Positions 19,222-42,988 of a stretch of 42,988 bases of DNA are shown here, piece by piece. This DNA is from a virus. Its lineage: Duplodnaviria > Heunggongvirae > Uroviricota > Caudoviricetes. The DNA is taken from the IMG/VR virus record IMGVR_UViG_3300045988_149348; one strand, given 5' to 3'. Below the pieces are notes generated by a model. It was not told the DNA's origin. It searched no databases and was given only the letters and a program-made list of their open reading frames with translations. Each line of letters begins with the position of its first letter. Position 1 is the stretch's first letter. The position numbers were made by a program, and so were the translations under genes.

Positions 19222-19802
19222 CCATTAGCAAGATACTGAACAAATCCCTCATGCGTTTCATGCGCGTCGTGGTACTGACGATAAACATCCAGCAACAATG
19301 CAATTTCCATATCCGTCGCGGGAATACGTTCTTTATCAATAGCCAGGTACTTAATTTGAACAACAGGGGAAGAATTATCGTCTTCTTCCTGCGGCTGTTC
19401 ATCGCTTAACATTTCGTCAAGCTCTGCATCATTAAACCCAAGCAGATCAATATCAAAATCATCATCCATTAACTCTTTGACTTCTTCGGCCAGAAGCTGC
19501 ATATCCCAGCCAGCATTTAAGGCCAGCTTGTTATCTGCAATCCTGTACGCCTTCTTCTGTTTTTCAGAAAGGTTACTCAACCGAATCGCCGGAACTTTAT
19601 CCATTTCCAAAATTTCGGCTGCTGCAAGCCGCCCATGCCCCGCAATCAGTTCATTCTTTTCATCGATCAGCACAGGATTAGTGAAACCGAACTCACGGAT
19701 ACTGTTCACCAACTGCTCAACTTGCTCATCTGAATGAGTCCGTGAATTTTTGGCATATCTGAGCAGCTTACCGACTGGTAAATATTCGATTTTTAGAGCC
19801 AT
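19212..19802 (-). CDS. ParB/Srx N-terminal domain protein (paralog 1)
   Basis: 196 aa; NSRTHSDEQVEQLVNSIREFGFTNPVLID...IAGHGRLAAA is a ParB N-domain-like motif; paralog of 22469..23092. Confidence 0.6.
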   Translation of the reverse strand: MALKIEYLPVGKLLRYAKNSRTHSDEQVEQLVNSIREFGFTNPVLIDEKNELIAGHGRLAAAEILEMDKVPAIRLSNLSEKQKKAYRIADNKLALNAGWDMQLLAEEVKELMDDDFDIDLLGFNDAELDEMLSDEQPQEEDDNSSPVVQIKYLAIDKERIPATDMEIALLLDVYRQYHDAHETHEGFVQYLANGCK

Positions 19803-21095: not shown

Positions 21096-22475
21096 CTACT
21101 TAATCAACGGCCGGAAAGCCGCCAGCACATCATCAGATCGTCCGATTGTTGAACCACCAGGCAACGGCAACTCAAACTCAAAACGAACAGCTTTCTCCAG
21201 ACTCGCCCAACTAAGGGAATCATCGTTAATGACGTGCAAATACCAGCTCTTACAGTTGAATATTGACCGCTTAATCCTGAAACCATGTACACGACACAAC
21301 TGCTTCACTTCCTCATCAGAGTGAAACTTCTGGTAAAACCAGTGCCCCTTCCGGTACAACGCGGTAAAACCGTTATGATCAATAAAATAAAGCCGGCTTT
21401 TGGAACTCGCCGCTTGTGTCTGCTTCAGGACTGTTTCCAGCTCTCCACGGCTACGGCCAGAAAAGAATATTGACCCACCAGCTTTACACAGCCCTTTCAG
21501 AACCGTCAGAACGGACCATTCAGCCTCGACACTATCGACCGAGTTCAAAACGCTATCGCAAATCACGTAGTCGTAACGCCCTCGCGTTTTTAAGTCGTCC
21601 ACCAGCGTATCAATCATCCGGTTTGTTGCGGTCCTATCCAGAGTGTTTCCAGCGCCCTTACGGCGGAAAAGCTCAAGATCATGCAGGTTATATCCCTTTG
21701 CCCTGAGCATTCGCGCGTAGTCTCCCTGACCCGAACCAAAATCAATTCCTCTTGGCGTCTTGGCAATGATCGGGAGGATCAACGACTCATACAGGTTTGA
21801 TTTCAGGCTGCCACCATTACGCAACCGCATAAGCTGCGCATACGTCTGGATGTATGTTGTTTTCTCCAGATGAGAATACTCAAATACACCATAAGTTTTA
21901 TTCAGATAACTTTGGTATTTTTCCTTCTCAACATCAGGGATCACAAACACCGTTAGCGGTGTGCGCGTCATCTTCGCTGCTAATGCATACTGAGCACAGT
22001 GAATAACCTCGCCAGACTGCGTAGCAACACAACCACCCCACGGACCATACTTGATAACCAGTTCCGCTATGTTCTTTCGAACATATGCCATTTTCGCGCG
22101 CATATTGCCTGAGATCTGGCTTGCCGATACCTGAACAAAACCATGCTTATCTTCCAGACCTGACACCCTGCAACGCTCATCTCCGCTGTCAAAATCCGTT
22201 CCGTTATGCAGTTGGTTAAACCGTACTTCGTCGTATACCGTCGTTTCACAGGGCAACACATACACCGCAGCACGCGTTATTCCCAACTTACGTAGCGCCT
22301 TCGTCCTTTGGTGTCCCGCCACCAGCAAATCGCCGCGCACTATCAATGGCTTCACAAGCCCCAGCTCCCTGACGCTTTCCGCCAGCCTCGCAAGATCATC
22401 CTCACCGATAAAACGCGGGTTATATTCCGCGCCGCGTAGGTGCGTTATGTCGTAATTGAGATGAAGCATCAGCAC
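21096..22475 (-). CDS. ParB N-domain / class I SAM-dependent methyltransferase fusion protein
   Basis: 459 aa; N-terminal ParB-like motif (PLIVRGDLLVAGHQR); C-terminal Rossmann methyltransferase motifs (GIDFGSGQGDY, LHDLE, YDYVICDSVL); no DPPY-type motif seen. Confidence 0.55.
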   Translation of the reverse strand: MLMLHLNYDITHLRGAEYNPRFIGEDDLARLAESVRELGLVKPLIVRGDLLVAGHQRTKALRKLGITRAAVYVLPCETTVYDEVRFNQLHNGTDFDSGDERCRVSGLEDKHGFVQVSASQISGNMRAKMAYVRKNIAELVIKYGPWGGCVATQSGEVIHCAQYALAAKMTRTPLTVFVIPDVEKEKYQSYLNKTYGVFEYSHLEKTTYIQTYAQLMRLRNGGSLKSNLYESLILPIIAKTPRGIDFGSGQGDYARMLRAKGYNLHDLELFRRKGAGNTLDRTATNRMIDTLVDDLKTRGRYDYVICDSVLNSVDSVEAEWSVLTVLKGLCKAGGSIFFSGRSRGELETVLKQTQAASSKSRLYFIDHNGFTALYRKGHWFYQKFHSDEEVKQLCRVHGFRIKRSIFNCKSWYLHVINDDSLSWASLEKAVRFEFELPLPGGSTIGRSDDVLAAFRPLIK

Positions 22476-23092
22476 ACCTCCCCAGCCAGCAATGCGGATA
22501 CAAATCCGATATAGCTGCCATTATCATCAACATAACGAGACACCGCGCAGTCAAAACGATCCGCTTCCTCATCCGTTGCCGGGATTTTATGACCTCCAAA
22601 TGACAGGTACTGAACTTTTACGCCTGATTTGGCCTCATCCTTCTCAAATGGGATATCCATACCCTCTGTGTCATCGTAGACCGCCGCACTCAATAAGTTA
22701 TCCAGTTCGCGCTGAGTAAAACCAATTGAGTCCAGAGCAAAATCATCGGCCGCAAGATCTGCAAGCTCCGCGCTTAACAACTCTTCATCCCAACCAGCAT
22801 TCAGCGGAATACGGTTGTCGGCCAGACGATATGCCTTCTTCTGATTCTCCGTTAGCCCTTCCAGAACAATGCAGGGAACGTCATCCATCCCCAACTGAGT
22901 GGCCGCAGCAATTCGACCATGACCAGCAATTACAACGTTGTTCTCGTCTATCAGGATCGGATTAGTCCATCCGTACTCCTGTATGCTGGCAACAATCTGA
23001 TCTACCTGCTCCACGGAGTGTGTGCGAGCGTTCTTTTCATAACCAATCAACACAGAAAGTGGTAAAGAAACCACATTAAGATGTTTTGTCAT
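22469..23092 (-). CDS. ParB/Srx N-terminal domain protein (paralog 2)
   Basis: 207 aa; NARTHSVEQVDQIVASIQEYGWTNPILID...IAGHGRIAAA; shares the C-terminal KIPATD motif with paralog 1. Confidence 0.6.
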   Translation of the reverse strand: MTKHLNVVSLPLSVLIGYEKNARTHSVEQVDQIVASIQEYGWTNPILIDENNVVIAGHGRIAAATQLGMDDVPCIVLEGLTENQKKAYRLADNRIPLNAGWDEELLSAELADLAADDFALDSIGFTQRELDNLLSAAVYDDTEGMDIPFEKDEAKSGVKVQYLSFGGHKIPATDEEADRFDCAVSRYVDDNGSYIGFVSALLAGEVC

Positions 23093-23214
23093 GCCGTTTA
23101 TCCGCTAAAATCCCCTCGCTTGTGCAAGCAAGTGGGCCTCGGTTTGTATCCACGGCACCCTGTGGGTATGAATGACTGTCGTCAGGTCGCAACTGACGGC
23201 GGGTGAGAGTGAAT

Positions 23215-23290
23215 TGGTGGCCCCTACCGGATTTGAACCGATGACCGTGCGATTATGAGTCGCCTGCTCTAACCACTGAGCTAAGGGGCC
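23215..23290 (-). tRNA. tRNA with CAU anticodon (Met or Ile2/lysidine type)
   Basis: 76-nt cloverleaf folded by hand: 7-bp acceptor stem, GCTC/GAGC D stem, anticodon loop CUCAUAA, T loop TTCAAAT, 3' CCA encoded. The 5' 42 nt match E. coli ileX-type tRNA as recalled. Confidence 0.8.
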
Positions 23291-23459
23291 ATATTTGATC
23301 TGTTTGTCTGGTGTGGCGCCGCGCACGAAAATCCCAGCCAATAAATTCAGGATTTTTGGGCGCGGCGGCATATCAGACAAACATGGTTGATGCGTGCGCC
23401 CATGAGAAAAGCGCATAGAATGTTGTAACTATATATTTATATAATTATAGAAATATATA

Positions 23460-23669
23460 TTACTTGGGGCAGTTGATTTCCCATGCCCTGTTATGAGCCA
23501 GAATATCTTTCTTTGTCTGGCGGTCCATAACATCGATATCGTGATCAGTCAGGTAGATGGGCTTTACCCAATCACAGGCGGTATCAACCACCACCGGGAC
23601 GCTTCCACGACTCCCGCAGCTCGCGATCAACATCGTCATCAGCCATATGGTTAACACTCTGCTGTACAT
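23460..23669 (-). CDS. o-spanin, Rz1-like lipoprotein
   Basis: 69 aa with lipobox LIASC; overlaps the 3' end of the Rz-like gene in another frame. Confidence 0.55.
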   Translation of the reverse strand: MYSRVLTIWLMTMLIASCGSRGSVPVVVDTACDWVKPIYLTDHDIDVMDRQTKKDILAHNRAWEINCPK

Positions 23670-25452: not shown

Positions 25453-25878
25453 TTATATATGTTCACGACTGGACTTCCAGAATATCCACGCCAGATCAAC
25501 ATTCTGGTCTTGGTAATTCATCCCTTCGTTGGCACGAAGCAATAATGTTTCATGGTTTTTATCACCCGCATGAAACCTGACAAGTGCTTCGAACTTTTCG
25601 CGCCCATCATCCGGCACTACCGCCGTTGGCGGCGCGGAGAATAGAGGTTTAGGTGATATTTCCGCACGTTTTGCGTATGCTTCAACTGTGTCAGGGTTAA
25701 ACAGGATTATGTTTTCACCGCATTCCCACGCTACCGGCTCTGCTTCCAGCGATGCCAGCGCGATACGAAACACATTGGCAAGCAGGCTGCTTGAAGATTG
25801 GTTATCGTGCGCCGGGTCGCTCAGGAAACCAGTGATGAATGATTTAATTTCCGCGTTTTCTCTGGTAATAGTGGTCAT
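25453..25878 (-). CDS. hypothetical protein
   Basis: 141-aa ORF, last gene of the accessory block. Confidence 0.4.
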   Translation of the reverse strand: MTTITRENAEIKSFITGFLSDPAHDNQSSSSLLANVFRIALASLEAEPVAWECGENIILFNPDTVEAYAKRAEISPKPLFSAPPTAVVPDDGREKFEALVRFHAGDKNHETLLLRANEGMNYQDQNVDLAWIFWKSSREHI

Positions 25879-26390
25879 GCCGCGTATCCTTCTTTCTTAT
25901 TAACAATTACACCGTCATATATTTCATTAAGGTGCCCTCTCAACTCCATGCGCCTTAATGCAGATAACATGTAATCGCATTCAACCTGCTTATTCCCAGT
26001 AAATGGCTTATCGTCAGGATTACCCCAACAGCAATTACCCTTGGGCCACCCATGTACTTTCCGTACTCTTCCGTTAACAACGTGAAGCAATCCCCAGCCA
26101 GGCGGTAAATCCTCAACTGAAATAATTCCCGGCTCACTAATAAAGAATCGCCAGTCGCCCATTCCAAGAGACGGATTTTTACGGAAACGCTTTTTTCTAT
26201 CTGCCAACAAGTCAGCACGAGAACACTTCGCCTCTATCAAGCATGATGCTGAATTTCTGAATCCCATAGCATCTGGCTGTTCTCCGGTACTGGTTACAGC
26301 TATAAAGCGGTCATGAAAGCAAACCTTGAACCCGTTGCGCTTAAGGAACTTGTACGCAATCTGACAGAGTTCGCGGTGTGTTAACGCCAT
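25875..26390 (-). CDS. putative PD-(D/E)xK-fold nuclease-like protein
   Basis: 171 aa from ATG 26390 (AAGGAG upstream); D...CLIEAKC arrangement resembles a D-ExK catalytic motif; assignment tentative. Confidence 0.4.
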   Translation of the reverse strand: MALTHRELCQIAYKFLKRNGFKVCFHDRFIAVTSTGEQPDAMGFRNSASCLIEAKCSRADLLADRKKRFRKNPSLGMGDWRFFISEPGIISVEDLPPGWGLLHVVNGRVRKVHGWPKGNCCWGNPDDKPFTGNKQVECDYMLSALRRMELRGHLNEIYDGVIVNKKEGYAA

Positions 26391-26575
26391 CTCACTCTCC
26401 TTTAGTGCGCAGATAACAGTGGTTTTTCCAGCGGTTTTGCGCCGCGCTACGCTTATCTTTGACTCCCTCTCTGGCAATTCCAGAATATAAGTACAACACC
26501 ACACGGCGATTGCTAACTCTCAACCACTGGCTGGGATAGCAACGTCTGTATACACGGGAAATAAGCATCTTTGCT

Positions 26576-26863
26576 TTACGGTTTTTCATCGTTTGCCCCC
26601 TGCTTTTCTGCCCTTAACACCATGCGAGAACCATCATCCAGCTCCCAATTGATTTCACCGCCTTCTGCCATGACAAGATGCCAAACGAGTTGTGCGGCCT
26701 CGTTGGTTACATCACGACCGCGATCATTGCCTACACGGCGTTTTGTTCCGTCACCTAAATCGCGCATTTTGGCCAACACGATGGTTTTTGATAGCGGTGA
26801 AAAACCAAGCTGTAGCCGTGCGGAATTACTCACTGGTTGCCCCCTGAATACGTTTAAACTCAA
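26576..26863 (-). CDS. hypothetical small protein
   Basis: ORF track only; start uncertain. Confidence 0.3.
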   Translation of the reverse strand: MSLNVFRGQPVSNSARLQLGFSPLSKTIVLAKMRDLGDGTKRRVGNDRGRDVTNEAAQLVWHLVMAEGGEINWELDDGSRMVLRAEKQGANDEKP

Positions 26864-28167: not shown

Positions 28168-28244
28168 TGTCGAGGCGTCCTTATACATTTATATAAATAT
28201 ATAATTCTATATACGGCGGGAGACATCCCGCCGTAGGCTTACTG

Positions 28245-29312
28245 TCAGGCTTTCAATAGCGATTCTTTCAGATATCGGGCATCAGCCAGGGCGTTTGGAG
28301 TAATCTTGCGAACCCATGCATTACGGGTTGGACTCCACTTAAAGGCGCGTGATTTAAGCAGCGAACGAATGTTTGCCTCTGGTTTGCCAGGGAAATAAAA
28401 CAGGATGCGGTTATCCTCTGGATCTATCTCCATAGAAAAGCCGTCGTATTCTTCGCGCTGTGCTCCTGTTACAGACTTGACCGATTCAAGCTCCTTAATA
28501 CGGCTCTGTAGTCGTTTGATTTCGGCGTTATTGTTGCTCAGTGCGTATGAAGGGAATCCGATGCGCCCACAGAAATCTCCGGCCAGTAACTCTTTGGCTT
28601 CGCTTTCTGTAAACCTGAGATCGATTAATGCAGAAAGCTGCTGTAATTGGTCTTTTTTGTATTTGCGAATGGCCTTATTTGCGGCCTTCATTTTGACGTG
28701 TGACTTCATGCAGCCTTGCAGCTTACGAAGCAACTTAAATAGCGCATCAGGATCATCAGACGAAATTCCATTACGACCAACACCTGCGGCTTTGCTCTCG
28801 TAGTGTGATGCTTTACTTTCGCATTCAACAAAGGCTTTTCTGAATAACGCATCAGCTTTAGACAAACGGCGGCGATGGCCTTTCGCGCTATAATGGTCAA
28901 CTAAAATCGGCTGGCCTAACGGGATCACATCCAACAGGTCATGCGCTCGCTTATGCGCTACCGCACCTTCTTTTCTGGCTTTTTCTGCACGAGCAACATA
29001 TCGGGCAAGACGCGCGTTCTGGCGTTCCTGATAGGTGTTTACGTAATCATCTCCGCGCTGCTGCTGTTCAAGCCATGCTTTGCGCAGATCTTCTGTTACG
29101 TCCACCAGCTCCGCAGGGATACAACCAGTTTGGGCTTCATAAGAGTAACCATCCTCATAGATACGCCCATCGTCTTCAACAAAGAAAAAGGTTTCGTGCT
29201 CATCGCTTTTGACCATACGACCATTAACATGGCGTAATAGGTAGCCAGTATCAGTGCTTAACAGGCTGTTAGGGTTGTTGATCCAGTCAGAAATAATTAC
29301 TTGTTTATTCAT
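28245..29312 (-). CDS. hypothetical protein (possibly DUF3560-like)
   Basis: 355-aa ORF, first gene after the Q-like gene; GGAG ribosome-binding site; preceded by copy A of the shared ~100-bp leader. Family assignment from memory only. Confidence 0.5.
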   Translation of the reverse strand: MNKQVIISDWINNPNSLLSTDTGYLLRHVNGRMVKSDEHETFFFVEDDGRIYEDGYSYEAQTGCIPAELVDVTEDLRKAWLEQQQRGDDYVNTYQERQNARLARYVARAEKARKEGAVAHKRAHDLLDVIPLGQPILVDHYSAKGHRRRLSKADALFRKAFVECESKASHYESKAAGVGRNGISSDDPDALFKLLRKLQGCMKSHVKMKAANKAIRKYKKDQLQQLSALIDLRFTESEAKELLAGDFCGRIGFPSYALSNNNAEIKRLQSRIKELESVKSVTGAQREEYDGFSMEIDPEDNRILFYFPGKPEANIRSLLKSRAFKWSPTRNAWVRKITPNALADARYLKESLLKA

Positions 29313-29318
29313 CAGATT

Positions 29319-29420
29319 TCTCCGGTTTAACCAGGGCGGGTATCGCTCGGTTTCGGGTATAACCTTAGGAAATTTTTTCCCACCTGTAAAGCACTTTTTA
29401 TATAAATCTATAATTATATA
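29319..29420 (-). promoter_or_regulatory. duplicated ~100-bp promoter/leader module, copy A (candidate Q-dependent late promoter region)
   Basis: Near-identical to 38909..39021 (3 differences seen by eye); sits between the Q-like stop codon and the next start codon; contains TTTACA-17-TAAGGT and an AT-rich 20-mer. Confidence 0.55.
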
Positions 29421-29481
29421 TTTATAGATTTTCGATGTTCCCGATGTCTACACACCATCAAAACAGCTCAAAATGACACTT

Positions 29482-31832: not shown

Positions 31833-31850
31833 TTAACGAACTCCAGTTAA

Positions 31851-31865
31851 ACCACGATATGTGGT
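31851..31865. promoter_or_regulatory. operator, ACCAC-N5-GTGGT family (ACCACGATATGTGGT), Cro-side
   Basis: Perfect 15-bp inverted repeat in the cro leader; imperfect neighbour ACCACATATCGTGAG at 31872..31886 falls in the spacer of a TTGAAA-17-TTTAAT promoter on the minus strand. Confidence 0.6.
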
Positions 31866-31953
31866 ATTAAAACCACATATCGTGAGTTTTTCAATGGGCG
31901 AAACAAAAAATAACCTTCTATTTGTGGTCCACCTCTCGTCTTACCATGTGAAA

Positions 31954-31968
31954 ACCACTAAATGTGGT
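31954..31968. promoter_or_regulatory. operator, ACCAC-N5-GTGGT family (ACCACTAAATGTGGT), repressor-side
   Basis: Perfect inverted repeat just upstream of a TATAAA -10-like hexamer (31973..31978) and the CI-like gene start. Confidence 0.6.
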
Positions 31969-32005
31969 AATGTATAAATAACCCACCATTCACGATTGAT
32001 GAGAC

Positions 32006-32662
32006 ATGAAAAGCAACGACGAGAACATCAAGAAAGAAATAGGTCTGCGCATTCAGACTCTACGGAAACAATCCGGCATGACTGCCGGAGATCTCCAGCA
32101 AGTCACTGGAATAGGCTTAAGCACCTTGCAGAACTATGAGGCCGGATTAAGACAACCATCTATACCTGCCATCAAGAAAATCGCGCACGCCCTGAAAGCA
32201 TCAGCGCCTTATATCGCGTGCTTAACAGATAACCCGTTCCCACCCCAGAATACTAACGCTCCTGTTATTCCTGGGCTTGTAGCTATAAAAAATGACATAG
32301 CATCGCACGCCGGAGAAAAGCCAGTGCTGGCGATAGAACAGGAGATTCTACGAAGCAAGAACATCAACCCATCGTCTCTGTCAGTTCTCCAGAGCAACGA
32401 TGAGTTAATGTCACCAACAATATCCCCTGGCTCCCAAGTCCTGATTAATACAGACGATACAGAGATTCATGAGGGGATCTATGCCCTTGAAGACAGAAAT
32501 GGCCTGGTTGTTTTGAGGCACTGTAGAGTCATACCGGGTGACAATGCTGTTATGCTGTCAACCGAAAGGGATGCTGAAATGAACACTAAGCATCTGAATA
32601 ACGAGGAATTTAAGCGTTATAAAGTTCTTGGCCGCGTAGTTAGTGTTGTCAACTGGTTATGA
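32006..32662 (+). CDS. CI-like repressor (HTH_XRE N-domain + LexA/S24-like C-domain)
   Basis: 218 aa; N-terminal helix-turn-helix (LQQVTGIGLSTLQNYEAG); C-terminal ELMSPTISPGSQVLIN aligns by eye with the S24 GDSMxPxIxxGDxVLVD motif. Confidence 0.7.
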   Translation: MKSNDENIKKEIGLRIQTLRKQSGMTAGDLQQVTGIGLSTLQNYEAGLRQPSIPAIKKIAHALKASAPYIACLTDNPFPPQNTNAPVIPGLVAIKNDIASHAGEKPVLAIEQEILRSKNINPSSLSVLQSNDELMSPTISPGSQVLINTDDTEIHEGIYALEDRNGLVVLRHCRVIPGDNAVMLSTERDAEMNTKHLNNEEFKRYKVLGRVVSVVNWL

Positions 32663-32754: not shown

Positions 32755-33129
32755 ATGGAATTACATACAGCCAATAAAAATGAAACTCTGATCACTGCTG
32801 GAATCGAAATCCAAGCGTTGAACATAGCGATTGAGTGTATGTTATGCCAAATCATTGATAATGAGAAAGATATCGACTGGATAGAATCTATCCTTCATCT
32901 GGCATCAGAACAAAAAGTCTGCCTCAAAACGGCCTTGCAATACGATGTGCCAGCGGTATCGAAGCTGTGCCAGCCATTGATGGCATATAACAGGGCTATT
33001 ATTTCTGTATGCCTCATGATTCTTGATGAAAACACCCCTCTTAGCGACCGCTCAGAAGCTGCTCTAACCCTCTCACGTAAACAGCGACATCTAGCAAATC
33101 AACTGATATCAACGATAGCTGACCTCTGA
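32755..33129 (+). CDS. hypothetical protein downstream of the repressor gene
   Basis: 124-aa ORF with its own operator copy upstream. Confidence 0.45.
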   Translation: MELHTANKNETLITAGIEIQALNIAIECMLCQIIDNEKDIDWIESILHLASEQKVCLKTALQYDVPAVSKLCQPLMAYNRAIISVCLMILDENTPLSDRSEAALTLSRKQRHLANQLISTIADL

Positions 33130-33264
33130 CTGCAAGCGGGCTAACGCCCGCTTATATGATTATAGATTTATATAATTATATAAAACGCTTTCCATCCGCC
33201 AAAAAGTTGGTTATGCTTACCTCGTTCTATAAATATAGATTTATAGAATTATATAACCAAACAC

Positions 33265-33933
33265 ATGGAGTCTCGACAAATGACTATCTCTGTAGGTATT
33301 TTCAACGGAAAAGGCGGCGTAACCAAATCAACAATTGCCCGTGCTTTAGCAGTTGCTTATGCAAAGGCTGGCTGGAATGTATGCCTGATCGATATGGATG
33401 TGCTTAACGGAACGGTAACGCGTTGGGTACAACGCAGAATGGCCAACAATATCGAACCAGCAATCGCGGCGCAGCCGTGCGGCACACCATCACAAGTCCA
33501 GAAAATCATCGAATCAGAAGTATACGACCTGGTTATCGTTGATGGCGGTGCCTACGCATCTGAATCAGTACCGAAGCTATCTGAATTTCTGGATATGGTT
33601 ATTTTGCCAACCCGATTCTCTACCGATGACCTGGAAACCACCGTTAACACTGCTCACGGCATCGTTAAAAAGGGTGTGCCAATCAAGAAAATTTGCATGG
33701 TGTTTTCCGGCGCGGCTGAAAATGAAGCTGACTATATTGAAGCCCAAGAGTACCTGGCTAATACGCCATACTTTGTTGTCGATAAGTACATTCCCCACAA
33801 GCCAGCTCTGAGCAAAGCTCAGGATAAGGGCTTAAGCCTCATTGAATGCTCATACGTTGCGCCACGCAAAAAGGCAGACGACGTTATTCAGGGGATTATC
33901 AACCAGCTTGAGGCTCTGACTACTGCCGCGTAA
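33265..33933 (+). CDS. ParA-family partition ATPase (small, type Ib-like)
   Basis: 222 aa; deviant Walker A GKGGVTKST near the N-terminus; followed by a small ribbon-helix-helix-like gene; AT-rich repeats upstream. Confidence 0.7.
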   Translation: MESRQMTISVGIFNGKGGVTKSTIARALAVAYAKAGWNVCLIDMDVLNGTVTRWVQRRMANNIEPAIAAQPCGTPSQVQKIIESEVYDLVIVDGGAYASESVPKLSEFLDMVILPTRFSTDDLETTVNTAHGIVKKGVPIKKICMVFSGAAENEADYIEAQEYLANTPYFVVDKYIPHKPALSKAQDKGLSLIECSYVAPRKKADDVIQGIINQLEALTTAA

Positions 33934-33976
33934 TATATAATTATAGTTTTATAGATTTATATAAGAGGGGATACAC

Positions 33977-34225
33977 ATGGCCGCACCATCAAAACCACCA
34001 AAGAAGAACAGCAAAGGCGTACCGCCATCGATCGAACAACCGCAGGTTTTCGACCCGACTGAAACGCCAACCAGAACCAAATCAGGTGGGGCACAAATGG
34101 CGTTTAACGTCGACCCTGAATTTAAACGCGAGTACAAAACGTTCGCCAGCTCAATGGATATGTCATTGAAAGAAGTGCTGACAAAATCTTTTGAGTTACT
34201 CAAGGCTCAATACAACCAGAAGTAA
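33977..34225 (+). CDS. ParG-like ribbon-helix-helix partition/centromere-binding protein
   Basis: 82 aa; basic Pro-rich N-terminal tail and C-terminal RHH-like segment (MAFNVDPEFKREYKTFA...); immediately downstream of the ParA-like gene. Confidence 0.5.
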   Translation: MAAPSKPPKKNSKGVPPSIEQPQVFDPTETPTRTKSGGAQMAFNVDPEFKREYKTFASSMDMSLKEVLTKSFELLKAQYNQK

Positions 34226-34254: not shown

Positions 34255-34437
34255 TTGGCCGTCGCGACACAACAAGGGGAATTTGTTATGTCCGAGCAAC
34301 AATATACACGGTTACTGAAAACTCGTCTAACCGACCTCAAACGGCTGCAAGCTGGTCGCTTATTTGCCCTGCTATCCACCAGGCCAGAATGGGTACGTGA
34401 AGCAGTTCTGAAAGGCTTAATGCGCTCCAGCGTTTAA
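34255..34437 (+). CDS. hypothetical small protein
   Basis: 60-aa ORF; last ORF before the hairpin at 34454..34469. Confidence 0.3.
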   Translation: MAVATQQGEFVMSEQQYTRLLKTRLTDLKRLQAGRLFALLSTRPEWVREAVLKGLMRSSV

Positions 34438-34446
34438 ATTCAACCA

Positions 34447-34469
34447 TAAAAAAGGCCCCCGAAGGGGCC
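34447..34469 (-). terminator. rho-independent terminator (minus-strand orientation)
   Basis: GGCCCC-CGAA-GGGGCC hairpin with an A-run on the plus side, giving a U-run on the minus strand after the small peptide ORF. Confidence 0.55.
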
Positions 34470-34475
34470 TAATCG

Positions 34476-34598
34476 CTACTTGCTGCTAATGTTTATCGTC
34501 ACATTCAGAGCGTTATCAGTAATCTTCCAACCCTCCCCATGTGGCGTAAACAAAGCTCCAGTAACAACGATAAAAATACACATGTAGTATTTTTTCAT
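34476..34598 (-). CDS. small hydrophobic peptide (40 aa), candidate membrane peptide
   Basis: MKKYYMCIFIVVTGALF...; AAGGG 8 nt upstream of ATG 34598; own terminator downstream. Low confidence. Confidence 0.3.
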   Translation of the reverse strand: MKKYYMCIFIVVTGALFTPHGEGWKITDNALNVTINISSK

Positions 34599-34976
34599 TG
34601 TGTGGCCCTTACAGGCCGTTTCACGGCATCCCCACCGACGAAAATGACGCGAGAGCAAGCACGCTGTTTGTGCCTGCGTGGTACGGCAAGTGGATAATCC
34701 TTTCCTGAAAGTCGGTGCCCGGTTGCGAATCGGCGAAAAGGCCCCGCGTAATGTTACACCGCAGCCCCTTCATAATGAAGGGATAAAAATGTATTGTTTT
34801 TCATTAGGTTAAATACACACCACAAAAATCACTCGCTTTTGTGCTCTAATAAACCAAATTTATTTGGACAATTTTATTCAGTTGGGTAAGAATATGGTTG
34901 CTGTTTGTGCTTGCGTGGTTGTATTTATACAACAACGTAATGCTGAAAGGACCGCGAATCCGATCAGCACGAAAGA

Positions 34977-35002: not shown

Positions 35003-35556
35003 GTTTCTCCCCCTTCCTTCCCAAATGATTCAAATGTTAATGAGAGTGAATCATTTGATATGTTCGATTTAGCGCCGTTATCGACCCAATTTCTGTATGC
35101 TTCATCACAACAGTACCTTACAGCAGTTGGAGTAACAGGGATGCCGCCCCCAAATGAGAATCCCATTGAGCTAATGCTAACTCTTTCGAATGGCCTATTT
35201 CTCAATGCTTCAAACCCCTTGCTATTAAAGTAACGCAGCATCAGAGGTAAAAGGTTATCCTCGTCCTGACTGATTGTTCCAGGGAAAAAGTAGTAACCAT
35301 AACGGTTAAATTCGGGAATAAGAATTTCTACCAATGACATGAAATTCACTGGAGTAATATTAAGGGCTGTGAAAGCACCAAAAAGGGCGTCAACTGTTAA
35401 TACAGACTGCCCGTTCTCTATCTTTGTCCATGCGTTTGGTGTTTTTCCAGCAGCTTGAGCCAGCACTCCTTGATGCACACCTCTTTCTAGCCTAAGTTCT
35501 TTTATGATCATTAGGTGAATTGTTGAAAAACATGAGTTTTTTGACTGTTCAATCAT
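34984..35556 (-). CDS. HTH_XRE-family DNA-binding protein with uncharacterised C-terminal domain
   Basis: 190 aa; helix-turn-helix VLAQAAGKTPNAWTKIENGQSVLTVD; GGGGA ribosome-binding site 6 nt upstream of ATG 35556. Confidence 0.55.
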   Translation of the reverse strand: MIEQSKNSCFSTIHLMIIKELRLERGVHQGVLAQAAGKTPNAWTKIENGQSVLTVDALFGAFTALNITPVNFMSLVEILIPEFNRYGYYFFPGTISQDEDNLLPLMLRYFNSKGFEALRNRPFERVSISSMGFSFGGGIPVTPTAVRYCCDEAYRNWVDNGAKSNISNDSLSLTFESFGKEGGETKKPSF

Positions 35557-35692
35557 TTTTTATCCCCATACTGAATTTTTTCTTGTTCCCGACTTTAACA
35601 AAACCCCACAACTCAGGACTGATTGATTCCTTACAGGAACTATACATTCCCATTTTTAGCATATCAAGAAAATTAAAAGCCCCGCATTCAAA

Positions 35693-35737: not shown

Positions 35738-35839
35738 TAAATGCGCCATTGGTGGACACTTTCCGAGCCGTAGCAAAATCTACGGTCGGGATTGGAACCC
35801 CGTAGACACAATGGCGCATACCGCGTTAGCGGTTTTTTT
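35738..35839 (+). ncRNA. candidate c4-like antisense regulatory RNA with intrinsic terminator
   Basis: Structured ~100-nt region: GCGCCATTG...CAATGGCGC long-range stem, CCGTAG/CTACGG inner stem, then ACCGC-GTTA-GCGGT plus UUUUUUU terminator (35820..35839). 35789..35817 is complementary in two blocks (CATTGTGTC, GTTCCAA) to 35917..35941 in the downstream leader. Confidence 0.5.
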
Positions 35840-36005
35840 ATGCGTAAAGCACTGCTACACCCAAATTATGGTGGGGCGTGCGGGGGAGTCGTAAGACTCG
35901 CCGGTTCGTCATTGTGTCCGGTAGTTCCAACCCTGCACGTCTCACCACCCAATGATTGGAACCTGACGGTGGTGAGTATCCTTAACCTTTAAGGGAATCA
36001 TCACA

Positions 36006-36197
36006 ATGACAAACCTACCCCATGACTATTACGTCAACCTCGTAAAGATCCTTCTCAAGAAAGCCTCATACGCCGATAAAGTCCGCCTGGCTGAAATCAT
36101 CGAGCGCGAAGCTATGCGCATCGCCAGCAACGATAACGCTGTTTCTGACGCAAAAATCTCCCTCGTAACCAAAGTAGTTATGGGAGGTGCAAAATGA
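36006..36197 (+). CDS. icd-like small ORF, translationally coupled to the antirepressor gene
   Basis: 63-aa ORF whose TGA stop overlaps the ATG of the next gene (ATGA); AAGGG ribosome-binding site lies in a CCTTAA/TTAAGG hairpin. Confidence 0.5.
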   Translation: MTNLPHDYYVNLVKILLKKASYADKVRLAEIIEREAMRIASNDNAVSDAKISLVTKVVMGGAK

Positions 36198-37375
36198 AAA
36201 CGCTTCCGATCGTTAACACCCTACAGCCTATCCTGCATAACCAGATCCCCGTTATCACTACTGAACTACTGGCAAAGCTATACGGCACAGACGTTGATAA
36301 CATCAAAAAAAATTACTCACGTAACGCAACCCGCTTTATTGAAGGAAAGCATTTTTTCAAAGTGGCTGGCGATGAGTTAAAAACTTTGCGAGTGACTTTA
36401 AGTCACTCACAAAATTTGCGACTAGTTTTAAACGAGTCACAAAATGAAGTGCAAATTTCCCCCAAGACTCGCTCTCTCATCCTCTGGACAGAACGCGGGG
36501 CTGCACGTCATGCCAAAATGCTTGAAACTAACCAAGCGTGGGATGTATTCGAACGGCTGGAAGACTGCTATTTCAGCCAGAACGCGCAAACGGCCGCGAC
36601 CGTAACCGTCTCGCCAAACAATGCTCGTGAGGTTGTCGATACGCTCAACGCCAAACCGATGTTTTACATTAAAGTGTGCAACAACGAGCCACTCACAACC
36701 TCAGCCGATGTTGCCCAGGCATTCAGCACCACAAACAATTCCATCGTTATGGCCATCGATGCGCTACGCATTCCTCGCACGGCTGCGGCGCGTCACTTCT
36801 TTAAAGAGCAACGACCGTTGGAAGGAAGCGACCGCGAAATAACAATCTATCGCATGACAAAAGACGGATTTACCTTGCTCATGGAGAGCATCGACGGTCC
36901 AGGCGTGAAAGATATCAAGCTGGCCTACATTGAAGCCTTTAACGCTATCAGCAGCGTGTTAAAAACACAGTACGAGCGTGATCTGGCTAAACGACTGTAC
37001 CAGGAAAAAACGATTATCCGCGCGGCAACAGAGCATAATCGGCTATTAACGGAACCGAACTACAGGAAGGAACTAATCAAGGAGTTTGACAAGGCAACAG
37101 GGAAAACCAAAGCGGCGCTAAATCTGCCAGCAATGACTCAGGAAAATGTGATATCAGCCTTACTTCTTGATCTGCTCAGAAACGCCAGAGCACTTATCAG
37201 CTTTGACGAAAACCTGAATCCTCAGCTCAAGCTACTACCACCGACAGGCAAAGTAGTCGACCAGGCTGATCACAACAGCATACTCAGCGTACTGGATGCA
37301 AACCTGCCAGCCAGGACACTACAGGATCTGATAAAAACATGTGCTGATAAGCTGGCACAGAAAAGCAGACCATAA
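36194..37375 (+). CDS. antirepressor-like protein (ORF6N/KilA-N-like N-domain + Rha-like domain)
   Basis: 393 aa; N-terminal ITTELLAKLYGTDVDNIKKNYSRNATRF (ORF6N-like) and central PLTTSADVAQAFSTTNNSIVMAIDAL (Rha-like), as recalled; GGGAGG ribosome-binding site. Confidence 0.6.
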   Translation: MKTLPIVNTLQPILHNQIPVITTELLAKLYGTDVDNIKKNYSRNATRFIEGKHFFKVAGDELKTLRVTLSHSQNLRLVLNESQNEVQISPKTRSLILWTERGAARHAKMLETNQAWDVFERLEDCYFSQNAQTAATVTVSPNNAREVVDTLNAKPMFYIKVCNNEPLTTSADVAQAFSTTNNSIVMAIDALRIPRTAAARHFFKEQRPLEGSDREITIYRMTKDGFTLLMESIDGPGVKDIKLAYIEAFNAISSVLKTQYERDLAKRLYQEKTIIRAATEHNRLLTEPNYRKELIKEFDKATGKTKAALNLPAMTQENVISALLLDLLRNARALISFDENLNPQLKLLPPTGKVVDQADHNSILSVLDANLPARTLQDLIKTCADKLAQKSRP

Positions 37376-38908: not shown

Positions 38909-39021
38909 TCTCCGGTTTAACCAGGGCGGGTATCGCTCGGTTTCGGGTATAACCATAGGAAATTTTTTCCCACCTGTAAAGAACCTTTTTATATAAATCT
39001 ATAATTATATAACTCTATGAG
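38909..39021 (-). promoter_or_regulatory. duplicated ~100-bp promoter/leader module, copy B
   Basis: Near-identical to 29319..29420, including the TATAAATCTATAATTATATA 20-mer. Confidence 0.55.
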
Positions 39022-41174: not shown

Positions 41175-42023
41175 TTAATGTTGGAGTGATTTCCAGGTCT
41201 TTCTTAACCTGTTATAACGCTGCTCAACGAGGGATCGTAAATATGCAAGGTCAGCACCTGGATACATGCCATCAGCAAATTCCTGACTAACCTCTCTAGT
41301 GATTTGATGACGAAGTTCGGCCTCTCCCTTTTCCTGAACAAGACGCGCAGCTCTCTCCGCTGCTTTCTGTTTTGCCTTTATCTCTCTGGCCGTCTTCCTC
41401 TGACGCCATACATTCTCCATCTGCTCCTGAATAACAATACGCTTATAATCAGCCTCCGTTATCGCTTTTTTAAGCCGTTCGCTATTCTTCGCATTGAAGT
41501 AATTAAGTTTCTGGCTAACCGCACGTCTCCATGCTTGTTCAGTAATACCAACGGTTTCCAGCAGTTGATCACGAATCTCTATTTTCGCTGGCCAATACTG
41601 TTTATTCACCCGATCCCAGCGACGTTCATAATCAATAAAACCTAACGCTTTCAGTTGCGACAACGCCCTTGTACAGCGCGTTATAGACTTGTTCCCAGCT
41701 TCGGATACGGTAGACAGGCCGCAAAAATCAGCCAACGCCTCAGCACTAGCCAGAACCCGCTTAGAAATGATGTTTACATGGTGCAAAATCGCAGCGATCA
41801 CAGCATTAATCGCCCGACGACGATGCTCGTTTATCCGGCGCTTCCGCTCTGACGGTTGATTAACGTAGAACGCAACCTCACACGTAAGATCACGCCCATT
41901 AATGCGCTGTAAAGCATCAGATAACACCAGCGGCAGCTTGTGCGTATGGTGCTTTGGAGGCTGGAACTCCGGCGACAAATTACAAACGTAAGCTGAACGT
42001 AGAGACGGCATTGGTCTATCCAT
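41175..42023 (-). CDS. repA: plasmid replication initiator RepA, IncFII RepA1-like
   Basis: 283 aa from ATG 42023; CGLSTVSEAGNKSITRCTRALSQLKALGFIDYERRWD matches the RepA1 core motif as recalled. The ORF track's longer form (to 42185) starts at a TTG. Confidence 0.75.
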   Translation of the reverse strand: MDRPMPSLRSAYVCNLSPEFQPPKHHTHKLPLVLSDALQRINGRDLTCEVAFYVNQPSERKRRINEHRRRAINAVIAAILHHVNIISKRVLASAEALADFCGLSTVSEAGNKSITRCTRALSQLKALGFIDYERRWDRVNKQYWPAKIEIRDQLLETVGITEQAWRRAVSQKLNYFNAKNSERLKKAITEADYKRIVIQEQMENVWRQRKTAREIKAKQKAAERAARLVQEKGEAELRHQITREVSQEFADGMYPGADLAYLRSLVEQRYNRLRKTWKSLQH

Positions 42024-42067
42024 ATGTTCGCTCTTGCGTCCACGGAAAACCAACGTATAATGGGAGT

Positions 42068-42148
42068 TGTCGATGCGCCCATGGATATTGTTGTTGGTTT
42101 TCCGTGGATGTCGCAAGAAGCCCGCAGATTTATCTGCGGGCTTTTTGT
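42068..42148 (+). ncRNA. candidate CopA-like antisense RNA (countertranscript to the repA leader)
   Basis: Plus-strand promoter TTGCGT-16-TATAAT (-10 at 42056..42061); stem-loop CCAUGGA/UCCGUGG; terminator GCCCGCAGA-TTTA-TCTGCGGGC plus TTTTT (42120..42146); lies 45-125 nt upstream of repA on the opposite strand. Confidence 0.55.
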
Positions 42149-42190
42149 TTCCATATCTGGTCACTTTCCAACCAGACACCCACAATCATA

Positions 42191-42335: not shown

Positions 42336-42890
42336 TCAATGATTCCCAGCCGGAAACCTGCGGTAAAGCGTGGATAAGGTAACATCGAAGATAATCGCTA
42401 TCCGCTTACGTGAAACACCATTCGCAATAAGCCTTCCGATCTGTTCCCATTGCTCTGGTGCCAATTTTGAGCGGCGTCCTCCTATCCTGCCGTTAGCCCT
42501 TGCCACCGCCAATCCTGCACGCGTTCTTTCAATCATATTTTCCCGCTCCATCTCTGCGACTGCACTCAGCATCGTGTAGGCAAAGCGGCCAATTGAAGTG
42601 CTAATTTTTATCCCTTCCGTAATCGAAATAAACTCAATGTTGTTTGATAAAAAATAGTTAAGTAAATCAACAAGATGAATCAGAGAACGCCCCATTCGGT
42701 CCAGCTTCCAGACAATAACCGTATCGCCCGGCCGTAACACCTTCAGTAGCTTATCAAGTCCTGGTCGTTTTGATTTAGCACCGGATATTTTATCTTCAAA
42801 AATCCGGTCACATCCTGAACTCCTGAGCGCTTCCAGTTGTAATTCCAAATTCTGGTCAAAAGTTGACACCCTCGCATAACCATATTGCAT
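42336..42890 (-). CDS. serine recombinase, Gin/Hin/Cin-family DNA invertase
   Basis: 184 aa; YARVSTFDQNLELQ catalytic-serine motif, VWKLDRMGRS, C-terminal GRIGGRR...LSTLYRRFPA helix-turn-helix; closely parallels Gin as recalled; gix-like site about 65 bp upstream. Confidence 0.8.
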   Translation of the reverse strand: MQYGYARVSTFDQNLELQLEALRSSGCDRIFEDKISGAKSKRPGLDKLLKVLRPGDTVIVWKLDRMGRSLIHLVDLLNYFLSNNIEFISITEGIKISTSIGRFAYTMLSAVAEMERENMIERTRAGLAVARANGRIGGRRSKLAPEQWEQIGRLIANGVSRKRIAIIFDVTLSTLYRRFPAGNH

Positions 42891-42953: not shown

Positions 42954-42988
42954 ATTCGCAAAAACCTCGGTTTACAGGAAACGGTAAA
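42954..42988. repeat. gix/hix-like invertase crossover site (right copy); inverted-repeat partner of 1..35
   Basis: Reverse complement of 42954..42979 is TTCCTGTAAACCGAGGTTTTTGCGAA; 25-bp perfect inverted repeat with window positions 1..25. Confidence 0.7.

What the first reader, a model, noticed from the sequence alone, without database searches (positions are those of the whole stretch)
33154..34225. Plasmid-type ParA/ParG-like partition pair flanked by the AT-rich repeats, inside a phage
A small deviant-Walker-A ATPase (GKGGVTKST) is followed by an RHH-like protein, with repeat copies upstream of and between the genes as candidate centromere sites. Active partition is a plasmid trait.
Basis: partly seen in the sequence, partly recalled or inferred. 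Interest (0 to 1): 0.6.

Follow-up and report, generated by a model that had tools for sequence, protein, structure and literature searches.

The report
Phage-plasmid partition pair with scattered centromere arrays
This is the plasmid-style DNA-segregation module (a ParA ATPase, a small ribbon-helix-helix DNA-binding partner and its repeat arrays) of a 48-kb phage that lives as a plasmid in E. coli; it is ordinary in kind, but its binding arrays lie at seven promoter-side places across the genome, not only beside the genes.

Summary
A 217-aa deviant-Walker-A ATPase (33280-33933) is followed by an 82-aa protein (33977-34225). Three AT-rich arrays sit beside them: two upstream and one between the genes. 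The ATPase best matches partition ParA over its full length, not MinD. The small protein has no curated family, but sequence and fold comparisons point to a disordered basic tail plus a ribbon-helix-helix domain. The element is a roughly 48-kb myovirus-type phage-plasmid with an IncFII RepA: 71 of 72 E. coli occurrences are on plasmids.

- Each array is exactly four 8-bp units (TATA box plus 4-bp spacer), the same periodicity as the ParG sites of TP228.
- There are seven such arrays in the window. Four lie far from par, at the head of other operons.

Relatives of the small protein always follow a ParA gene, in phage-plasmids and in ordinary plasmids alike. Each has 8-bp-period arrays whose unit sequence changes with the predicted DNA-reading residues.

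Best reading: a type Ib partition system whose centromere-binding protein autoregulates par and also occupies dispersed arrays, as in pSM19035 omega or N15. No binding or stability experiment exists. I rate it a new variant of a known kind, of moderate interest.

The parts
33280..33933 (+). parA: 217-aa type Ib (short, no N-terminal HTH) deviant-Walker-A partition ATPase; an alternative ATG lies at 33265
   Evidence: CbiA 1.7e-12; phrog_164 2e-39; NF041546 ParA_partition 4.3e-22 over the full length (78.6 bits, below the cut-off of 180). ParF of TP228 is the best partition protein in the PDB (3e-4).
33977..34225 (+). Centromere-binding protein candidate (82 aa): a basic, proline-rich disordered N-tail (residues 1 to about 39) plus a C-terminal strand-helix-helix (RHH) domain
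   Evidence: phrog_6024 (unknown function). 102 family representatives. 12 of 33 members give weak RHH_10 hits. hhalign to ParG gives E 3.4e-4 in register. The AF2 model has helices at 47-59 and 64-79. Top Foldseek hits are almost all RHH proteins.
33152..33183 (.). Array D: 4 x 8-bp units (TTATATGA TTATAGAT TTATATAA TTATATAA), directly after the hairpin that ends the upstream gene
   Evidence: conserved in the E. coli and Salmonella relatives.
33225..33256 (.). Array E: 4 x 8-bp units, ending 24 nt before the parA start codon; candidate operator overlapping the par promoter
   Evidence: The 41-nt spacer between D and E diverges in Salmonella while the arrays are kept.
33933..33964 (.). Array F: 4 x 8-bp units filling the gap between parA and the CBP gene, ending at the CBP RBS
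   Evidence: The same third site is present in locus L011 with a different unit sequence.
23429..23460 (.). Dispersed array A (4 x 8 bp), about 140 nt upstream of tRNA-Met (minus strand) and the ParB_N/methyltransferase genes
28181..28212 (.). Dispersed array B (4 x 8 bp), between a hairpin and the start of a minus-strand operon whose first gene is a MarR-like phrog_1687 protein
29398..29429 (.). Dispersed array C (4 x 8 bp), at the upstream end of a 103-nt repeated promoter/leader in front of the DUF3560/primase-like gene (28245-29312, minus)
38989..39020 (.). Dispersed array G (4 x 8 bp), lying between a terminator (39051-39029) and a promoter-like TTTACA-17-TATGGT (38980-38952, minus strand) with the second copy of the 103-nt leader
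34288..34437 (+). Conserved 49-aa third ORF of the operon (MSEQQY...), function unknown
   Evidence: A 48-49-aa ORF follows the CBP gene in the E. coli, Serratia, L010, L011 and L013 loci. There is only a weak phrog_22022 hit.

Best explanation
This is a type Ib ParABS-like partition cassette of a 48-kb phage-plasmid.

Shown:
- A short Walker-type ParA gene is followed by an 82-aa protein of a previously unannotated family.
- Arrays of four 8-bp units (a TATA tetramer box plus a 4-bp spacer) bracket the par promoter region and fill the parA-cbp gap.
- Four more identical-format arrays sit upstream of other operons.
- The ParA-small-protein pair and 8-bp-period arrays travel together across phage-plasmids and ordinary plasmids.
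- The unit sequence changes with the three predicted DNA-facing beta-strand residues.

Inferred mechanism:
- The small protein dimerises through a ribbon-helix-helix domain. One dimer reads each box, so four dimers coat a 32-bp array cooperatively.
- Occupation of arrays D and E represses the par promoter (autoregulation).
- The conserved basic N-terminal tails (MAxPSKKPxKxxKGxPP) contact nucleoid-bound ParA-ATP and stimulate its ATPase. The plasmid prophage copies then ride ParA gradients to opposite cell halves.
- The dispersed arrays are bound by the same protein. They act as extra centromere sites, as handles that tie transcription of early, replication and accessory operons to the level of the partition protein, or as both. 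This resembles omega of pSM19035 and the four SopB sites of N15.
For: ParA identity: partition ParA over the full length; MinD only at the P-loop; ParF is the nearest partition structure.

Plasmid lifestyle:
- 61 plasmid records; 71 of 72 places in E. coli genomes are on plasmids.
- IncFII RepA, 231 bits against a cut-off of 70.
- no integrase is annotated in the complete 48,183-bp relative.

RHH nature of the small protein:
- conserved pattern LNFxVxxEFxREFKxFA...SMxELLxxxFExYK.
- 12 of 33 members hit RHH_10; others hit Antitox_RHH, 56B_RHH, HicB, ParD or NikA.
- ParG RHH aligned in register, E 3.4e-4.
- two helices at 47-59 and 64-79 after a disordered tail.
- roughly 45 of the top 50 structural neighbours are RHH proteins, with target TM-scores of 0.6-0.84.

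Gene linkage: in all nine relatives with a complete upstream gene, the small gene directly follows a CbiA/ParA gene. The ParAs co-diverge with it, at 53, 34 and 31% identity.

Arrays belong to the pair rather than to phage regulators. Plasmid-like loci that lack the cI-like gene still carry 8-bp-period arrays upstream of parA: L007 (ParE TA), L008 (RPA replicase plus resolvase) and L009 (DnaB).

Covariation of residues 40/42/44 with the 8-bp unit:
- Q,A/S,N with TTATAKAW (window, Salmonella).
- P/A,N,N with CTTTAAAT/TTTATTTC (four loci).
- P,N,K with TTCGTTAA (two loci).
- G,N,Q with TGTAGAAW.
- T,S,T with GGAACCAR (about 45 copies).
- Q,K,A with GTAC boxes.

Dispersal is conserved with the motif switch. 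The Serratia phage-plasmid has six arrays of its own motif, and the Tara contig L013 has extra arrays.

Precedent:
- One ParG dimer binds each 4-bp box, with 4-bp spacers between boxes (PMC3130281).
- Four contiguous repeats are the minimum for full ParA activation by the RHH ParB omega, whose parS sites overlap three promoters (PMC9499535).
Against: - No experiment exists: DNA binding, ATPase stimulation and plasmid stabilisation are all inferred.
- Every RHH signal is below the curated or significance thresholds. There is no Pfam or NCBIfam hit for the window protein itself. The best Foldseek E-value is 0.81. hhalign probability to ParG is only 38%.
- The AF2 monomer shows no beta-strand. 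This is expected for an RHH monomer, but it is not proof.
- ParA scores below NF041546's curated cut-off.
- No convincing sigma-70 promoter was found on the plus strand between arrays D and E, so the operator role rests on position only.
- The residue/motif covariation rests on about 11 loci read by eye, not on a statistical test.
- AT-rich arrays just upstream of a -35 element could also act as UP elements.
Confidence: 0.75

Rival explanations
1. The arrays are operators or promoter elements of the phage's own regulatory circuit (bound by another phage regulator, or acting as UP elements or H-NS/IHF sites). The small protein would not bind them, and the partition system would use some other site or none.
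For: Four of the seven arrays are far from par and sit next to promoter-like sequences or leaders of unrelated operons. The arrays are extremely AT-rich. Several HTH regulators are encoded nearby.
Against: The cI/divergent-promoter region (31833-32005) contains no array. Arrays of the same 8-bp format accompany parA-cbp in plasmid-like loci that lack the phage regulators. The unit sequence co-varies with the small protein's predicted DNA-reading residues. All arrays have the same fixed length of four units, which fits a stoichiometric protein array better than an UP element.
Confidence: 0.12
2. The pair is mainly a transcriptional control module. The small RHH protein is a global repressor or activator of early and maintenance operons, and the ParA-like ATPase modulates it or has another role. 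There would be little or no contribution to segregation, with plasmid stability coming from the toxin-antitoxin systems and copy number.
For: The arrays are promoter-proximal at seven or eight places. The element carries a HigB/RelE-type TA and a ryfA/TimP-type locus, which could stabilise it. RHH ParBs such as omega are bona fide global regulators (PMC9499535).
Against: The ATPase is collinear with partition ParA over its full length, and nine of nine relatives with a complete upstream gene have it directly upstream of the small gene. In known systems (omega, ParG, KorB) regulation and partition coexist rather than exclude each other. IncFII-type replicons are low-copy (established knowledge), so active partition is expected.
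Confidence: 0.08
3. The ParA works with one of the three ParB_N-domain proteins of the element (19212-19802, 21096-22469, 22469-23092) as a ParA/ParB pair. The 82-aa protein would be unrelated.
For: PHROG labels these three proteins 'ParB-like partition protein', and Pfam detects ParB_N in them.
Against: They lie more than 10 kb away on the other strand, in the late block beside the terminase. They have only the N-terminal ParB/Srx domain; one is fused to a methyltransferase domain, and no HTH or dimerisation domain was detected. A short type Ib ParA normally pairs with the small downstream protein, and that synteny is conserved in loci without any ParB_N gene.
Confidence: 0.03

Closest known systems
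ParF-ParG-parH/OF of plasmid TP228 (type Ib)
   Same: A short Walker-type ParA is followed by a roughly 80-aa protein with a flexible N-tail and a C-terminal RHH. The sites are arrays of 4-bp boxes separated by 4-bp AT-rich spacers (8-bp period), in mixed orientation and upstream of the operon, and they serve as both operator and centromere (PMC3130281). ParF is the nearest partition structure to this ParA. ParG's RHH aligns in register.
   Different: The sequence relationship is marginal: there is no Pfam ParG hit, hhalign probability is 38%, and ParF matches at only 3e-4 over half the protein. The box here is TATA, not ACTC. The arrays are short (four boxes), and there are seven or eight of them spread over about 16 kb, instead of one block of 20 boxes.
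delta-omega (ParA/RHH-ParB) of pSM19035
   Same: An RHH centromere-binding protein binds arrays of short contiguous repeats that overlap several promoters, acting as both parS and global operator. Four contiguous repeats are the minimum for full ParA activation (PMC9499535), which matches the invariant four-unit arrays found here.
   Different: That system uses 7-bp heptads in arrays of 7-10, in a Firmicute plasmid. No sequence similarity to omega was detected (no PDB sequence hit at E<=10). The host replicon here is a phage genome.
SopAB with four dispersed IR centromere sites of phage-plasmid N15
   Same: It is a plasmid prophage whose centromere consists of separate sites rather than one cluster (IR1-4, PMC7205306). 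From my own knowledge (Grigoriev & Lobocka 2001; Ravin, Rech & Lane 2008, not readable here), these sites lie in phage regulatory and replication regions and influence phage gene expression.
   Different: N15 uses a type Ia system (a large SopA with an N-terminal domain, an HTH ParB-family SopB, and 16-bp palindromes). This system is type Ib, with an RHH protein and direct-repeat arrays.
ParA-ParB-parC1/parC2 (par2) of pB171 (type Ib)
   Same: From my own knowledge: a small ParA plus a small RHH ParB, with repeat arrays located both upstream and downstream of the genes.
   Different: That system uses 6-bp repeats in two large clusters, with no dispersal through the replicon. It was not compared by sequence here.

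Membership tests
ParA/Soj superfamily, partition-type (type Ib) ATPase | Deviant Walker A motif KGGxxK[ST] with the signature lysine | tested here: met
   GKGGVTKST at residues 10-18 of the 217-aa protein; Pfam CbiA 1.7e-12, above its cut-off.
ParA/Soj superfamily, partition-type (type Ib) ATPase | Short protein (about 200-230 aa) without the N-terminal HTH/regulatory domain of type Ia ParAs | tested here: met
   217 aa. Walker A starts at residue 10. Collinear with the 203-position NF041546 model from position 2 to 200.
ParA/Soj superfamily, partition-type (type Ib) ATPase | Reaches the curated score of a partition-ParA equivalog model | tested here: not met
   NF041546 ParA_partition is the best family (4.3e-22), but 78.6 bits is below the cut-off of 180. 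It is a divergent relative, not an equivalog member.
ParA/Soj superfamily, partition-type (type Ib) ATPase | Small centromere-binding-protein gene immediately downstream, with conserved synteny | tested here: met
   Nine of nine relatives with a complete upstream gene have a CbiA/ParA gene directly upstream of the small gene. The ParAs co-diverge.
ParA/Soj superfamily, partition-type (type Ib) ATPase | Stabilises a low-copy replicon in cis with its centromere | not testable with these tools
   Needs a plasmid-loss assay.
   TIGR01968 scores 26.9 bits against a cut-off of 212.9, and only residues 6-41 (the P-loop) match.
ParG family (Pfam ParG, TP228-type RHH CBP) | Sequence match to the ParG family | tested here: not met
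   No Pfam family at E<=1 for the window protein. No ParG hit among 33 family members. hhalign to the ParG sequence (typed in from memory) gives E 3.4e-4 at probability 38%.
Ribbon-helix-helix (MetJ/Arc) superfamily | N-terminal beta-strand followed by two helices, with alternating hydrophobic core residues in the strand | tested here: inconclusive
   The pattern is L/M-x-F-x-V followed by helices at 47-59 and 64-79. There are sub-threshold hits to six RHH Pfam families. The top Foldseek neighbours are almost all RHH, but the best E-value is 0.81. The dimer could not be modelled.
Ribbon-helix-helix centromere-binding proteins | Binds arrays of short repeats, one dimer per repeat | not testable with these tools
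   Indirect support only: 8-bp-period arrays accompany the gene in every locus examined, and the unit sequence co-varies with residues 40/42/44.
Phage-plasmid (extrachromosomal prophage) | Complete phage gene set plus a plasmid replication gene, found as a circular plasmid and as a virion genome | tested here: met
   One search shows terminase, portal, capsid, contractile tail, lysis genes and RepA in a 48,183-bp circular record. One search identifies an IncFII RepA. Searches give the plasmid records. One search shows that three Yersinia phage isolates are 98.6-99% identical in this region.
Type Ia ParABS (P1 ParAB, F/N15 SopAB) | HTH-ParB family centromere-binding protein and a large ParA with an N-terminal DNA-binding domain | tested here: not met
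   ParA is 217 aa. The partner is 82 aa with no ParB domain. The element's ParB_N proteins lie in the late block and lack HTH and dimerisation domains.

The most novel reading that the evidence does not exclude
The 82-aa RHH protein is both the centromere-binding protein and a genome-wide regulator of the phage-plasmid. Through seven or eight identical-format four-box arrays, it would build a distributed centromere. It would also couple transcription of replication, early and accessory operons (primase-like gene, MarR-like regulator operon, tRNA/ParB_N block) to the state of the partition complex. On this reading the partition protein forms part of the lysogeny-maintenance circuit in a whole, so far uncharacterised, family of RHH partition proteins found from enterobacterial phage-plasmids to marine contigs.
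Probability: 0.4. Interest if true: 0.6.

Novelty: new variant of a known kind. Interest (0 to 1): 0.45.

Why it matters
Phage-plasmids are increasingly recognised as common in Enterobacteria; this one is in about 1.3% of complete E. coli genomes, including the reference strain ATCC 25922. How they are inherited is known mainly for P1 and N15, which both use type Ia systems.

This locus adds three things:
- A type Ib, RHH-based system whose DNA-binding partner is labelled 'hypothetical protein' in every record seen and has no curated family.
- A defined family of that partner (102 representatives) with a simple, readable residue-to-box code.
- A natural case where the centromere arrays are spread over promoter regions of a phage genome. 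That makes the link between segregation and gene control directly testable in an easily available strain.

Tried and rejected
- Direct sequence searches of the 82-aa protein against Pfam, NCBIfam and PDB sequences gave nothing. A profile search against the PDB gave only noise-level hits: titin, and an RHH antitoxin at E 1.7.
- hhalign with only the close homologues gave no signal against ParG (probability 1%). It improved only with the deep alignment.
- Fold search was not statistically significant. The dimer could not be modelled because the tool folds single chains.
- The promoter scan found no acceptable plus-strand sigma-70 promoter for parA, and none at arrays A-C. Only array G has a neighbouring promoter-like site.
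- Literature searches by phage name, protein accession and plasmid accession found no description of this element or its par locus. pTZ20_1P turned out to be P1-like and irrelevant. The element is not one of the ten typed phage-plasmid groups; pSLy3 is SSU5-like at 85-134 kb.
- Ravin & Lane 1999 (PMC94163) is not held, so the statement about where N15's sites lie rests on my own knowledge.
- Rejected: the arrays as RepA iterons, because none lies near repA (41175-42185).
- Rejected: the arrays as cI operators, because there are none in the cI/divergent-promoter region.
- Rejected: the ParB_N proteins as ParA partners (see rivals).
Full report
**1. What is in the sequence**

Between 33130 and 34440 the plus strand reads, in order:
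- a hairpin (GCGGGCTAACGCCCGC) ending the upstream 124-aa gene;
- a 32-bp AT-only array (D, 33152-33183);
- a 41-nt ordinary spacer;
- a second 32-bp array (E, 33225-33256);
- a GGAG ribosome-binding site and a 217-aa ORF from ATG 33280 (an in-frame ATG lies at 33265);
- a third 32-bp array (F, 33933-33964) that exactly fills the gap after the stop codon;
- AAGAGGGG and an 82-aa ORF (33977-34225);
- a 49-aa ORF (34288-34437).

The 217-aa protein begins MTISVGIFNGKGGVTKST, a deviant Walker A motif. The repeats are not chance. The 16-mer TTATAGATTTATATAA with up to 3 mismatches occurs 24 times against 0.71 expected. Self-similarity at an 8-nt lag is found in five segments, and at no other lag from 5 to 12.

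**2. What the element is**

The 1.8-kb region is 98.6-99.4% identical to 58 or more circular, non-mobilizable plasmids of 44-52 kb, mostly from E. coli. It matches three Yersinia phage genomes (vB_YpM_39/41/44) equally well.

A complete relative (NZ_CP070136.1, 48,183 bp) carries the following, with no integrase annotated:
- terminase, portal, capsid, contractile-tail and lysis genes;
- an IncFII-type RepA (231 bits against a cut-off of 70);
- a RelE/HigB-type toxin-antitoxin pair.

Among 5,426 complete E. coli genomes, 71 carry the locus, in 72 places; 71 of those places are on plasmids and one is on a chromosome. One carrier is the reference strain ATCC 25922.

The window itself is a contig that ends in perfect 25-nt inverted repeats next to a Hin/Gin-type invertase gene. 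It probably broke at an invertible tail-fibre segment.

**3. The ATPase**

- Pfam gives CbiA (1.7e-12), and PHROGs gives 'ParA-like partition protein' (2e-39).
- The best NCBIfam model, and the only full-length one, is ParA_partition NF041546 (4.3e-22, residues 5-206 on positions 2-200 of 203). The score of 78.6 bits is below the equivalog cut-off of 180.
- MinD, ArsA, Mrp and others match only the P-loop.
- In the PDB the nearest partition protein is ParF of TP228 (3e-4).
- With 217 residues and Walker A at residue 10, there is no room for the N-terminal DNA-binding domain of type Ia ParAs.

I file it as a divergent type Ib partition ParA, not as a member of any curated equivalog.

**4. The small protein**

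It has no Pfam, NCBIfam or PDB sequence match. PHROG 6024 is 'unknown function'.

An exhaustive profile search found 102 cluster representatives, almost all 72-90 aa. The alignment of 33 of them shows three parts:
- a conserved basic, proline-rich N-terminus (MAxPSKKPxKxxKGxPP);
- a variable linker;
- a conserved C-terminal block, LNFxVxxEFxREFKxFAxxxDMSMxELLxxxFExYK.

Four weak but concordant lines of evidence point to a ribbon-helix-helix fold:
- Scanned singly, 12 of 33 members touch Pfam RHH_10, and others touch Antitox_RHH, 56B_RHH, HicB, ParD or NikA. All are below threshold.
- hhalign places the block in register on the RHH of ParG, with E 3.4e-4 and probability 38%.
- The AlphaFold monomer is disordered to residue 46 and then forms helices at 47-59 and 64-79, with pLDDT 81-92 there.
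- Its Foldseek neighbours in the PDB are almost exclusively RHH proteins (PutA DNA-binding domain, CdbA, CopG, Arc, AmrZ, ParD, AtaR, NikA), with target TM-scores of 0.6-0.84 but no significant E-value.

RHH is therefore the well-supported fold class. Membership of the ParG family was tested and not met.

**5. The arrays**

Every array is exactly four 8-bp units with ordinary sequence on both sides. Of the 28 units, 23 have TATA at positions 2-5, and the consensus is T-TATA-K-A-W. This is a tetramer box plus a 4-bp spacer in mixed orientation. TP228's ParG sites have the same geometry (ACTC boxes, 4-bp AT-rich spacers, one dimer per box; PMC3130281).

Four contiguous repeats is also the experimentally determined minimum for full ParA activation by the RHH ParB of pSM19035 (PMC9499535).

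In the Salmonella relative the 41-nt spacer between D and E has diverged beyond recognition, while the arrays are retained.

**6. The arrays are not only at par**

The same four-unit array occurs at 23429, 28181, 29398 and 38989, and an eighth copy lies in the complete relative. All lie in the non-structural half of the genome, upstream of minus-strand genes:
- before tRNA-Met and the ParB_N/methyltransferase genes;
- before a MarR-like regulator operon;
- before a DUF3560/primase-like gene;
- before a phrog_8090/HTH operon.

Two of the arrays head a 103-nt repeated promoter/leader. At 38989 the order is terminator, then array, then TTTACA-17-TATGGT.

**7. Which protein binds them**

The evidence is comparative.
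- (a) In all nine relatives with a complete upstream gene, the small gene directly follows a CbiA/ParA gene. The ParAs diverge in parallel, at 53, 34 and 31% identity.
- (b) The relatives include phage-plasmids with the same cI-orf-parA-cbp module (Serratia pJSRIV006_2, which has lambda-like rather than myovirus structural genes, plus L006, L010 and L011). They also include plasmid-like contigs without any of the phage regulators (L007 with ParE, L008 with an RPA replicase and resolvase, L009 with DnaB). All carry 8-bp-period arrays upstream of parA.
- (c) The unit sequence differs between loci and tracks the three residues predicted to face DNA (positions 40, 42 and 44, which flank the invariant core Phe43):
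  - Q,A/S,N goes with TTATAKAW.
  - P/A,N,N goes with CTTTAAAT/TTTATTTC in four loci.
  - P,N,K goes with TTCGTTAA in two loci.
  - G,N,Q goes with TGTAGAAW.
  - T,S,T goes with about 45 tandem GGAACCAR units.
  - Q,K,A goes with GTAC boxes.
- (d) The Serratia element has six dispersed arrays, all of its own motif. L011 repeats the layout of two arrays upstream and one between the genes, and the marine contig L013 has extra arrays.
- (e) The cI/divergent-promoter region of the window has no array.

Together these make the 82-aa protein the most likely ligand of all arrays. It remains an inference.

**8. Mechanism proposed**

- RHH dimers bind one per box and coat a four-box array.
- Arrays D and E flank or overlap the par promoter and give autoregulation. 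Array F may control or insulate cbp expression.
- The conserved basic N-tails stimulate nucleoid-bound ParA-ATP, giving diffusion-ratchet segregation of the low-copy IncFII-type plasmid prophage.
- The dispersed arrays add partition-complex mass, or tie the neighbouring promoters to CBP occupancy, or both. This parallels omega in pSM19035 and, in a type Ia setting, the separate SopB sites of N15 (plus my own knowledge of Grigoriev & Lobocka 2001 and Ravin et al. 2008).

What is shown: gene identities, synteny, array format, dispersal and covariation. What is inferred: binding, stoichiometry, ATPase stimulation, repression and stabilisation.

**9. Rivals**

- The arrays belong to another regulator or are UP elements (0.12).
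- The pair is mainly regulatory and has no partition role (0.08).
- ParA pairs with one of the ParB_N proteins (0.03). These proteins have only a ParB/Srx N-domain, one is fused to a methyltransferase domain, and they sit in the late block beside the terminase.

**10. Novelty and verdict**

A partition module in a phage-plasmid is expected, and a type Ib ParA/RHH/repeat system is a known kind. Three things are new:
- the CBP family, which is unannotated everywhere;
- the invariant four-box arrays;
- their dispersal over about 16 kb of a phage genome, conserved with a motif switch in a distant relative.

No paper in the library describes this element or an RHH partition system in a phage-plasmid.

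It is a new variant of a known kind, with interest of about 0.45.

Noticed in passing
window 1-25 and 42964-42988; ORF 42336-42890 (-): The window ends are perfect 25-nt inverted repeats (TTTACCGTTTCCTGTAAACCGAGGT) that resemble gix/cix crossover sites (resemblance judged from memory). The adjacent 184-aa ORF is a serine recombinase (Resolvase 3.4e-44 plus HTH_7). The complete relative has tail-fibre genes in the missing interval, so the contig probably broke at an invertible tail-fibre segment.
   Followed up: partly
window 34448-34746 (-): There is an Rfam ryfA match (136.6 bits) directly downstream of the par operon. It contains a 40-aa hydrophobic ORF (34476-34598, minus). From my own knowledge, ryfA encodes the TimP type I toxin in Salmonella, so this may be a second stabilisation module next to par.
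   Followed up: partly
window 35767-35952 (+), 36194-37375 (+): isrK (67.7 bits) and C4 antisense RNA (77.8 bits) are followed by an ORF6N/Rha anti-repressor gene. This is a P1/P7-type immI antisense-controlled anti-repressor region, in addition to the cI-like HTH-S24 repressor at 32006-32662.
   Followed up: partly
window 29319-29420 and 38909-39011: A 103-nt repeat (97% identical) forms the promoter/leader of two unrelated minus-strand operons, each headed by an array. A third copy lies in NZ_CP070136.1 at about 45094-45207. No Rfam family matches it, and whether the leader has its own RNA function is unknown.
   Followed up: partly
window 23215-23290 (-): A tRNA-Met (CAT) gene lies inside what the ORF list shows as a 103-aa ORF (23105-23416), so that ORF is probably spurious.
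   Followed up: yes
window 19212-19802, 21096-22469, 22469-23092 (all -): Three ParB_N-only proteins sit beside the terminase, and the middle one also carries a methyltransferase domain. PHROG labels them 'ParB-like partition protein', which is misleading for this element.
   Followed up: partly
window 32755-33129 (+): A 124-aa protein of unknown function (phrog_7632, no Pfam or NCBIfam hit) is conserved between the cI-like repressor and parA in every phage-plasmid relative seen (E. coli, Salmonella, Serratia, L006, L010, L011).
   Followed up: no
L005 (Serratia pJSRIV006_2, NZ_CP074139.1): This 44-kb phage-plasmid shares the cI-orf-parA-cbp-RepA maintenance and early module with the E. coli element, but it has lambda-like siphovirus head and tail genes instead of myovirus ones. 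That is a clear case of module exchange between phage-plasmids.
   Followed up: partly
window around 23202/23203 versus L001 43335-46091: The window lacks a 2.7-kb segment that is present in NZ_CP070136.1. That segment holds an MT-A70 methyltransferase, several small ORFs and the eighth array with its leader. Other variable islands lie at window 25646-26627 and around 35009-35689.
   Followed up: no
L009 2920-3270: About 45 tandem 8-bp units (GGAACCAR) lie upstream of a parA-cbp pair in a 49-kb contig that also encodes a giant ankyrin-repeat protein. This is an extreme version of the array.
   Followed up: no
window 454-495/622-663 and 595-667/727-799: Short direct repeats (42 nt at 98% identity, 73 nt at 84%) occur in the tail-fibre-proximal end of the contig.
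   Followed up: no
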